Shown one piece after another: positions 28,243-29,706 of a stretch of DNA of 64,000 bases. The stretch comes from Escherichia coli (GTDB lineage: Bacteria > Pseudomonadota > Gammaproteobacteria > Enterobacterales > Enterobacteriaceae). How positions within the stretch are numbered: position 1 is the stretch's first letter; each line of letters opens with the position of its first letter. Made by a program: the position numbers and the translations under genes. Location of the stretch: NCBI RefSeq assembly GCF_048403405.1, contig NZ_CP183129.1; one strand, written 5' to 3'. Below the pieces are notes generated by a model that ran no database searches, was not told the DNA's origin, and saw only the letters and a list, made by a program, of their open reading frames with translations.

Positions 28243-28274
28243 TGAACTGAACCCCAAAACCTGGACAGTTTCAG

Positions 28275-28997
28275 TTAACCGGCTTTTTGATGCTCAGTCC
28301 GGTATTCTACCGGACTGAGTCCCCCAAGACTGAGTTTTATTCTTTTTTGATTCCAGTAAGTTATGTATTCGTTAACGGCATTTTCCAGCTCTTCTACACT
28401 TCTGTAGTCCCGGCGATAGTACATTTCTTCTTTCAGGTGACCAAAGAAATTCTCCATTACCGCATTATCAAGGCAGTTGCCCTTGCGCGACATGCTCTGC
28501 ACTAACCCTTTGTCTGCCAGGGCAGACTGATAACTTTTTATCCGGTAATGCCACCCTTGATCACTGTGGAGCAGCGGTTTTTCTCCTTCTGCAAGGCTTT
28601 CCAGCCCCTTATTTAACATGCGCTTCACCAGCTCCTCTGTAGGCCTGCAGGCAGTTTCCCACGCCACGATTTCCCCGTTAAACAAATCAAGTATCGGGGA
28701 CAGGTACAGTTTTTGTCCGCCAGCCCTGAATTCGGTGATATCTGTCACCCATTTCTCACAGGGAGCTTCCGCTTTGAACTGTCGCTGAAGGATATTTTCT
28801 GCAGCGAGTCCCATATTTCCCCGGTAAGACCGGTATTTCTTCAGGCGCACAGGAGACTTCAGGCCGAGCTGTTGCATCAGTTTTCGCACCGTTTTGCCAC
28901 TGAACTTAAGACCTCTTTTCTGAAGCTCACAATGGATCCGCCGGTACCCATAACATCCCCGGTGTTCATGGAAGATGGAGGCTATGAGCTGTTTCAC
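28275..28997 (-). CDS. IS3-family transposase OrfB (DDE integrase domain), probably expressed as an OrfAB fusion by -1 frameshifting
   Basis: ORF 28275..28997, 240 aa from the first ATG; integrase-like sequence (...LHSDQGWHY...SRKGNCLDNAVMENFFGHLKEE...); the frame stays open upstream of the ATG towards orfA. Confidence 0.8.
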   Translation of the reverse strand: MKQLIASIFHEHRGCYGYRRIHCELQKRGLKFSGKTVRKLMQQLGLKSPVRLKKYRSYRGNMGLAAENILQRQFKAEAPCEKWVTDITEFRAGGQKLYLSPILDLFNGEIVAWETACRPTEELVKRMLNKGLESLAEGEKPLLHSDQGWHYRIKSYQSALADKGLVQSMSRKGNCLDNAVMENFFGHLKEEMYYRRDYRSVEELENAVNEYITYWNQKRIKLSLGGLSPVEYRTEHQKAG

Positions 28998-29101
28998 ATC
29001 AGCATACTTGTCCTTAGCCTTCTGCAGTGACAGCTGGTAGTACAGCGTGCTTCTGGCCAGCCCTGCAGCCTTTAACAGGTCAGACTGGCAGTGTCCGCAC
29101 C

Positions 29102-29632
29102 TCAGGCTCCGGATGACTTTCGTTTTTTCTCCAGCTCCTGGCGCTTTTTTTCCAGGAGATGCTCCTGCATGGCTTTCAGATATGCATTTTCTGCGCGAAG
29201 ATAACGCAGCTCATTCTTCATCTCTTCCGGCGTCATGTTTGCTTCGTTTTCATGGGTATCATCAGAACGGGTCATGCTTTTCTCCTTCCTGCGCCTGATA
29301 AAGGCCTCATTACCAGATTTGCGGTAGCCTTTTATCCAGTTTTTAACCGTGTTGTGGCTGGGAATGTTAAACCGGGCAGCTACCCGGGGTAGAGACTCAG
29401 AATGCCCGAGAGCATAAAGAACCACGCAAAGTTTATCTTCAGGAGAATAGCTACGCCTGTGTCTGCAATCCAGTGCCCGAGGACCGTGAAGAAGAAAAAG
29501 ATTAATCCAGTGTGAGAGGCTGGTGTGAGAAAGTTGAAAGAGTTTTGCCGTAGAAATGATGCCTGCATGACCGGCCAGGTAATGATTTACAGCGGCAATT
29601 TTTACTTCAAATGAATGTTTCATAAACTGCAC
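29102..29632 (-). CDS. IS3-family transposase OrfA (HTH DNA-binding part)
   Basis: ORF 29102..29632, 176 aa, MKHSFEVKIAAVNHYLAGHAGIISTAKLFQLSHTSLSHWINLF...; an A6 run (gagAAAAAAcg) lies near its 3' end. Confidence 0.85.
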   Translation of the reverse strand: MQFMKHSFEVKIAAVNHYLAGHAGIISTAKLFQLSHTSLSHWINLFLLHGPRALDCRHRRSYSPEDKLCVVLYALGHSESLPRVAARFNIPSHNTVKNWIKGYRKSGNEAFIRRRKEKSMTRSDDTHENEANMTPEEMKNELRYLRAENAYLKAMQEHLLEKKRQELEKKRKSSGA

Positions 29633-29706
29633 CTTCAGATGTCAGATTATGTCCAACATTTGGGGTGCAGTTCAGGCCGCGTCTTATCAGGCCTATAGTT
29701 TGAAAC

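What the first reader, a model, noticed from the sequence alone, without database searches (positions are those of the whole stretch)
28243..29675. IS150-like (IS3-family) element inserted into a REP cluster between rluA and djlA, with a GGC target duplication
A 1433-bp element with ~25-bp imperfect terminal inverted repeats (TGAACTG...TGGACA) and two consecutive transposase ORFs (HTH OrfA, DDE OrfB, with an A6 slippery run near the overlap) sits in the rluA–djlA spacer. It is flanked by GGC on both sides, and the flanks themselves are halves of REP-type palindromes, so the IS appears to have targeted a REP sequence. From recall, K-12 carries the yabP/yabQ pseudogene fragments in this spacer; they are absent here. 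The element looks intact, so it is a potential source of local rearrangement and of outward-reading effects on djlA or rluA.
Basis: partly seen in the sequence, partly recalled or inferred. Interest (0 to 1): 0.45.

Follow-up and report, generated by a model that had tools for sequence, protein, structure and literature searches.

The report
IS1397 inserted in a REP loop
This is an intact copy of IS1397, a well-known E. coli jumping gene that inserts into the loops of REP palindromes; here it sits in one between rluA and djlA, so the finding is correct but ordinary.

Summary
The element is real. It is IS1397, an IS3-family insertion sequence of the IS150 group, at window 28243..29674. The transposase is on the minus strand.

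- **Anatomy:** 25-bp terminal inverted repeats (21/25, TG...CA ends). OrfA has 173 aa with two HTH domains. A canonical A AAA AAG -1 frameshift site lies at 29150..29144. The 449-aa OrfAB carries D295/D355/E391.
- **Target duplication:** the GGC duplication is genuine. The closest relatives lacking the IS (e.g. strain KE55) read GCCTGATGCGACGCG-GGC-CGCGTCTTATCAGGC, and the size difference is 1435 = 1432 + 3.
- **Target type:** the insertion is in the loop of a REP palindromic unit (PU). So were all 13 other IS1397 insertions I sampled. REP targeting by IS1397 has been published since 1999.
- **Naming:** RefSeq annotates identical copies as "IS3-like element IS1397 family transposase".
- **Distribution:** full-length IS1397 occurs in 1707 of 5426 complete E. 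coli genomes. Ten or eleven carry it in this spacer, from at least four independent insertions.
- **K-12 comparison:**
- **Neighbour effects:** rluA and djlA converge on the IS, so promoter effects on them are unlikely.

Already known; low interest.

The parts
28243..29674 (-). IS1397, complete copy, 1432 bp
   Evidence: It is 100% identical over its full length to RefSeq copies annotated 'IS3-like element IS1397 family transposase'. The ends were fixed by comparison with the empty site.
29650..29674 (-). IRL, the terminal inverted repeat upstream of orfA (TGAACTGCACCCCAAATGTTGGACA on the transposase strand)
   Evidence: 21/25 matches to IRR.
28243..28267 (-). IRR, the terminal inverted repeat downstream of orfB (TGAACTGAACCCCAAAACCTGGACA read inward on the + strand)
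28240..28242 (.). Target-site duplication, left copy (GGC)
   Evidence: The empty site in KE55 has a single GGC. The size difference is 1435 bp.
29675..29677 (.). Target-site duplication, right copy (GGC)
29102..29623 (-). orfA: 173 aa from the ATG at 29623, with two HTH_28 domains and a C-terminal coiled/leucine-rich stretch
29144..29150 (-). Programmed -1 frameshift heptamer A AAA AAG in the orfA frame
   Evidence: IS150 has the same heptamer at the equivalent position. The fusion protein made here exactly equals deposited protein UGK15274.1.
28275..29623 (-). orfAB transposase: 449 aa, joined by the -1 shift. The orfB frame is open from 29210 to the TAA at 28277..28275. Domains are HTH_21 and the rve integrase core, with D295, D355, E391.
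   Evidence: (NCBIfam IS3 transposase, 388 bits against a cutoff of 160). The coordinates equal the PGAP CDS in GN02461.
29624..29673 (-). Predicted hairpin. IRL bases 2-11 pair with the Shine-Dalgarno region just before the orfA ATG. It could form only in transcripts that enter from outside, i.e. djlA read-through.
   Evidence: MFE -34.6 kcal/mol, z = -4.9, 0 of 200 shuffles fold as well. The function is inferred, not shown.
28225..28239 (+). Left arm of the targeted palindromic unit (GCCTGATGCGACGCG)
29678..29695 (+). Right arm and tail of the targeted palindromic unit (CGCGTCTTATCAGGCCTA)
28176..28209 (-). Second, intact palindromic unit of the same BIME (GCCGGATGCGGCGTAAACGCCTTCTCCGGCCTAC on the - strand)
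   Evidence: There is a sub-threshold naRNA4 (REP-derived) Rfam hit at 28179-28243.
27495..28154 (+). rluA (context); its 3' end faces IRR
29707..30522 (-). djlA (context); its 3' end faces IRL, on the same strand as the transposase

Best explanation
The element is a complete and probably active copy of IS1397, an IS3-family insertion sequence of the IS150 group.

How it works:
- OrfA is translated from the ATG at 29623.
- A fraction of ribosomes slip -1 on A AAA AAG and make the 449-aa OrfAB transposase, which has N-terminal HTH domains and a DD(35)E integrase core.
- By analogy with studied IS3-family members, OrfAB excises a copy as a circle with abutted ends. It then integrates that circle with a 3-5 bp staggered cut.
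- IS1397 directs integration into the loop of E. coli REP palindromic units.

In this window it landed in the loop (GGC) of the second PU of a two-PU BIME. That BIME lies between the convergent 3' ends of rluA and djlA. The insertion split the REP stem-loop and duplicated GGC.

The insertion is recent and lineage-specific. It is shared by six near-identical clinical genomes and is absent from their closest relatives. Its likely local consequence is loss of the REP hairpin downstream of djlA, plus read-through of djlA transcripts into the IS. It is not likely to activate a neighbouring gene.
For: Shown here:
- **Identity.** It is 100% identical over 1432 bp to copies that RefSeq names IS1397 family. 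The OrfAB sequence is an exact member of a protein cluster named 'IS3-like element IS1397 family transposase'.
- **IS3-family features.** TG...CA ends with 25-bp inverted repeats. Two frames joined at A AAA AAG. NCBIfam IS3 transposase at 388 bits against a cutoff of 160. Pfam HTH_28 x2, HTH_21, rve. D295/D355/E391 with 60/36 spacing.
- **Real 3-bp duplication.** Verified against the empty site in KE55.
- **PU-loop targeting.** 14 of 14 sampled insertions lie in the loop of a PU stem. These are the window, GN02461 yiaW-aldB, eight other loci in eight strains, and four other rluA-djlA insertions. Eleven of the 14 have clean 3-5 bp duplications.
- **Recent activity.** A second copy in sibling genome GN02461 (yiaW-aldB) has 0 differences from this one.
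- **Lineage specificity.** Six genomes share the identical 3073-bp rluA-IS-djlA region. The nearest relatives, with 99.8% identical flanks, have the empty site.

From the literature: IS1397 inserts specifically into REP/PU sequences, and its transposase sets that specificity (PMC1525189 and the references it cites).

Inferred, not shown: the copy-out/paste-in circle mechanism, by analogy with other IS3-family members (my own knowledge); the frameshift efficiency; and the role of the IRL/Shine-Dalgarno hairpin.
Against: - No direct comparison with the ISfinder reference entry was possible. The name rests on RefSeq/PGAP annotation and on behaviour.
- Transposition activity of this copy was not tested.
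- No sigma-70 consensus promoter was found in the element by the simple scan, so how orfA is transcribed here is not shown.
- Three of the 14 sampled insertions lack a clean duplication.
Confidence: 0.96

Rival explanations
1. It is a copy or isoform of IS150 itself.
For: It has the same architecture and nearly the same length (1432 vs 1443 bp). The same A AAA AAG heptamer sits at nearly the same position. The terminal sequences are similar (TGAACTGCACCC vs TGTACTGCACCC).
Against: There is no significant DNA similarity to K-12 IS150: the best blastn hit is 25 bp at E = 0.006. OrfB is only 51% and OrfA 26% identical. RefSeq names the element IS1397.
Confidence: 0.01
2. It is an inert relic: structurally whole but no longer mobile, and inherited vertically at this site.
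For: Activity was not tested here. No consensus promoter was found. Degenerate copies do exist elsewhere, for example the frameshifted copy in Nissle 1917 and a 65-bp fossil in K-12.
Against: All functional parts are intact. An identical copy sits at another locus in a sibling genome. The insertion is absent from relatives whose flanks are 99.8% identical. Sibling genomes hold 4-5 places.
Confidence: 0.05
3. The insertion matters mainly by changing expression of djlA or rluA through an outward-facing or hybrid promoter.
For: IS3-family elements are known to create hybrid promoters at some sites (my own knowledge).
Against: rluA (+) ends at 28154 and djlA (-) ends at 29707. Both point into the IS, so no promoter reading out of the IS can reach either gene's start. 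Transcription reading outward would be antisense to them. The scan found 0 promoter-like sites.
Confidence: 0.05

Closest known systems
IS1397 (IS3 family, IS150 group; E. coli; Bachellier/Clement/Wilde/Hofnung papers 1997-2003, cited in PMC1525189)
   Same: It is annotated as IS1397 in identical RefSeq copies. It is 1432 bp long, with two ORFs joined by a -1 frameshift and a 3-5 bp duplication. It inserts into the loop of palindromic units of BIMEs, in either orientation.
   Different: Nothing of substance differs. This copy differs at 4-23 positions from other sampled IS1397 copies. I could not align it to the ISfinder reference itself.
IS150 (E. coli K-12 insJ/insK)
   Same: Same subgroup architecture, the same A AAA AAG frameshift heptamer, similar end sequences, and a 3-bp duplication.
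   Different: OrfB identity is 51% and OrfA identity 26%, with no DNA similarity. IS150 is not known as a REP-specific element (my own knowledge).
ISKpn1 (Klebsiella pneumoniae) and other REP-targeting IS (IS621, ISPsy8, ISPpu9/10)
   Same: They insert specifically into REP sequences (PMC1525189).
   Different: They have different hosts and different REP types. IS621 and ISPpu9 belong to the IS110 family, which uses an unrelated mechanism.

Membership tests
IS3 family | Length about 1.2-1.55 kb, with imperfect terminal inverted repeats ending 5'-TG...CA-3' | tested here: met
   1432 bp, TGAACTG...CAGTTCA, inverted repeats 25 bp with 21/25 matches.
IS3 family | Two consecutive, partly overlapping ORFs (orfA in frame 0, orfB in frame -1) joined by a programmed -1 frameshift at an A-rich heptamer | tested here: met
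   A AAA AAG lies in the orfA frame at 29150..29144. The orfB frame is open from 29210, and the fusion is 449 aa. The fusion exactly equals a deposited protein. The frameshifting itself was not tested.
IS3 family | DDE transposase with an rve integrase core and DD(35)E spacing | tested here: met
   Pfam rve at 5e-21. NCBIfam NF033516 IS3 family transposase at 388 bits against a cutoff of 160. D295, D355, E391.
IS3 family | Target-site duplication of 3-4 bp | tested here: met
   GGC is duplicated relative to the empty site in KE55.
IS3 family | Copy-out/paste-in transposition through a circular intermediate with abutted ends | not testable with these tools
   Inferred from studied family members; it needs outward PCR or an in vivo assay.
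IS1397 | Near-identity to the reference IS1397 sequence (the ISfinder convention for the same IS or an isoform) | tested here: inconclusive
   No ISfinder copy is available. Indirect support: 100% identity to RefSeq copies named 'IS3-like element IS1397 family transposase', and exact membership of a protein cluster with that name.
IS1397 | Insertion into the central loop of E. coli palindromic units (REP) of BIMEs | tested here: met
   The window insertion and 13 of 13 other sampled insertions lie in PU loops. The property is stated as experimentally proven in PMC1525189.
IS150 (the element itself) | High nucleotide and protein identity to K-12 IS150 | tested here: not met
   blastn finds only a 25-bp chance-level hit. 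InsK identity is 51% and InsJ identity 26%.

The most novel reading that the evidence does not exclude
The two- or three-PU BIME between rluA and djlA may be a preferred landing pad for IS1397, rather than one of several hundred equivalent PUs. Among 5426 genomes it was hit at least four and probably five separate times: TSD GGC; TSD GCC shifted 1 bp; TGGC in a nested PU; the first PU; and the opposite orientation. This would imply that something local, such as convergent transcription or a protein bound at this BIME, guides integration. A further possibility is that the IRL/Shine-Dalgarno hairpin gates transposase expression against djlA read-through.
Probability: 0.15. Interest if true: 0.3.

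Novelty: already known. Interest (0 to 1): 0.08.

Why it matters
It matters little beyond correct annotation. The region should be labelled IS1397, 28243..29674, minus strand, TSD GGC, inserted in a PU loop. The insertion is a usable lineage marker for a small clade of human clinical E. coli: six complete genomes share it exactly. It is also one more homologous copy that can mediate rearrangements. IS1397's REP specificity is textbook for this element, so no open question becomes testable because of this window.

Tried and rejected
- **Primary papers.** I tried to read the primary IS1397 papers (PMC94167, PMC95333, PMC169884). None is held. The published properties are therefore cited through PMC1525189 and reference lists.
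- **IS150 identity.** Tested and rejected.
- **Promoters and terminators.** The scan of 28050-29850 found 0 promoter-like sites and 1 terminator-like site, against 1.8 expected from shuffles. It was uninformative.
- **Rfam.** The scan of 27400-30700 gave only a sub-threshold naRNA4 (REP-derived) hit on the BIME remnant and one chance-level snoRNA hit. No frameshift-element family matched.
- **Plasmids.** There were essentially no true plasmid copies. The full-length hits are in records of chromosome size or very large replicons.
- **Frameshift at the A6 run.** The resulting protein is not in the 15-billion-protein collection, while the A AAA AAG product is.
- **More copies in the window.** None; only the two ends of this element match.

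Full report
**What is there**

Window 28243..29674 is a 1432-bp element bounded by TGAACTG...CAGTTCA. Its 25-bp terminal inverted repeats match at 21 of 25 positions. The repeat finder returns a 43-nt inverted repeat (28225-28267 / 29650-29692, 84%). It is longer than the inverted repeats because it runs on through GGC into the flanking palindrome arms.

**Coding content (minus strand)**

orfA runs from the ATG at 29623 to 29102 and encodes 173 aa. A second frame is open from 29210 to the TAA at 28277..28275.

The heptamer A AAA AAG lies in the orfA reading frame at 29150..29144. A -1 slip there gives a 449-aa OrfAB. That conceptual protein is an exact match to a deposited E. coli protein (UGK15274.1), in a cluster whose members are named 'IS3-like element IS1397 family transposase'.

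OrfAB has the following features:
- It hits NCBIfam NF033516 (IS3 family transposase) at 388 bits against a curated cutoff of 160.
- It hits Pfam HTH_28 (twice), HTH_21 and rve/rve_2/rve_3.
- The catalytic residues are D295, D355 and E391, with the expected DD(35)E spacing.

**Name**

The 1432 bp are 100% identical to copies in RefSeq E. coli genomes that PGAP annotates as 'IS3-like element IS1397 family transposase', with a programmed frameshift.

Against K-12 IS150 there is no meaningful DNA similarity. OrfB is 51% and OrfA 26% identical to InsK and InsJ. IS150 does share the same heptamer at the same relative position, and it has similar ends. So 'IS150-like' is right as a subgroup statement, but the element is IS1397. 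I could not reach ISfinder or the original IS1397 papers, so the name rests on annotation and on behaviour.

**Target duplication and target**

In ten of 5426 complete genomes, the rluA-IS-djlA region (3073 bp) is covered at 80% or more. In the closest relatives without the IS, the same flanks span 1638 bp at 99.8% identity. The difference of 1435 bp is 1432 + 3.

The empty site in KE55 reads GCCTGATGCGACGCG GGC CGCGTCTTATCAGGCCTA. The window reads ...GACGCG GGC [IS] GGC CGCGTC.... The GGC is therefore a true 3-bp duplication, and the insertion point is the loop of a REP palindromic unit. A second, intact PU lies at 28176..28209, so the target is a two-PU BIME. Rfam's REP-derived naRNA4 model gives a sub-threshold hit on the remnant.

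I sampled 13 further IS1397 insertions:
- the yiaW-aldB copy of GN02461;
- copies near ybaL-gsk, rrf, yfcL-mnmC, hybG, mak, msrQ, yaeF and one unannotated site, in eight strains;
- four other insertions in the rluA-djlA spacer.

All 13 lie in the loop of a PU stem-loop, as does the window copy. Both Y-like (GCCGGATGCGGCG...) and Z-like (GCCTGATGCGACGC...) units are hit, and both orientations occur. Eleven of the 14 insertions in the set (window included) have clean 3-5 bp duplications.

This is the published behaviour of IS1397. PMC1525189 states that it is experimentally proved that IS1397 inserts into REP elements and that the transposase is responsible for the specificity. It cites Clement 1999 and Wilde 2001 and 2003.

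**Distribution and age**

- Full-length IS1397 is present in 1707 of 5426 complete E. coli genomes, almost always on chromosomes.
- Six genomes (GN02461, 4621, MS 69-1, TUM1226, OX030728, TUM14771) share the window's rluA-IS-djlA region at 100%.
- In GN02461 the yiaW-aldB copy has zero differences from this one, which points to recent transposition in this lineage.
- The window is not any of these six assemblies. Over 15 kb it differs from GN02461 by one substitution and one 1-bp deletion.

**Recurrent hits in the same spacer**

- IAI39 and BH100 carry the IS in the same PU loop, shifted by 1 bp (TSD GCC).
- KE50 carries it in an extra PU nested in that loop (TSD TGGC).
- SK0189 carries it in the first PU.
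- GF60 carries it in the same PU in the opposite orientation.
- The IS copies involved differ from the window copy at 11-23 positions.

These are at least four independent events.

**Context and likely consequences**

rluA (27495..28154, +) and djlA (29707..30522, -) converge, so the IS lies beyond the 3' ends of both. Activation of either gene by an outward promoter is therefore not plausible, and a consensus scan finds no promoter-like site in the region.

The transposase is on the same strand as djlA, so djlA read-through would enter IRL in the sense direction. In such a transcript, IRL bases 2-11 are predicted to pair with the Shine-Dalgarno region of orfA (MFE -34.6 kcal/mol, z = -4.9, 0 of 200 shuffles). 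This would be a plausible guard against outside activation, but it is inference only. The insertion also destroys the REP hairpin that follows djlA in the empty allele; any effect on mRNA 3' ends is untested.

**K-12 comparison**

MG1655 has yabP (b0056) and yabQ (b0057) in a 1507-bp djlA-rluA spacer. That spacer has no similarity to the 117-bp BIME spacer of the window.

**Verdict**

The element is the already described IS1397 doing what it is known to do. Interest is low.

Noticed in passing
window 30777..33130 (+), deletion at about 31047-31050: lptD is split into 116-aa and 668-aa ORFs by a 1-bp deletion in a homopolymer: CATCAAAAGAGG here versus CATCAAAAAGAGG in GN02461, where lptD is annotated intact (784 aa). 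No complete genome listed matches the window exactly over this stretch (best 99.7%). lptD is essential, so this is most likely a homopolymer error in the window's assembly.
   Followed up: partly
L011 1501-1565 (K-12 MG1655 derivative, between yhhJ and yhhI); matches window 28243-28307: About 1780 E. coli genomes that lack full IS1397, including K-12 MG1655 and BL21(DE3), hold a 65-bp fossil of the IS1397 IRR end (95% identity). It is preceded by a half PU (GGCCGGATAAGGCGTTTA) and abuts an ISEc1/H-repeat transposase gene. This looks like an old REP insertion truncated by another element.
   Followed up: partly
L005 (KE50) and L007 (SK0189), rluA-djlA spacer: These strains have a spacer 33 bp longer than the window's. 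A whole PU (GCCGGATGCGACGCTGGCGCGTCTTATCCGGCCTAC) appears nested inside the loop of the Z-like PU. So REP units themselves seem to have been inserted into a REP loop here.
   Followed up: no
window 11570..12139 (-): A 189-aa ORF lies between sgrR and thiB. Its DNA is about 65-68% similar to the K-12 yabP region, so a yabP-like paralogue sits at a different place in this strain.
   Followed up: no
L004 (IAI39) and L008 (BH100), rluA-djlA insertion: The two genomes share the same insertion point and TSD (GCC), but their IS copies differ from each other at more than ten positions. This suggests either conversion between IS copies or two hits at the identical base.
   Followed up: no
window 26583: There is a single substitution in rapA relative to GN02461 (C here, T there). 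It is the only other difference in 15 kb.
   Followed up: no
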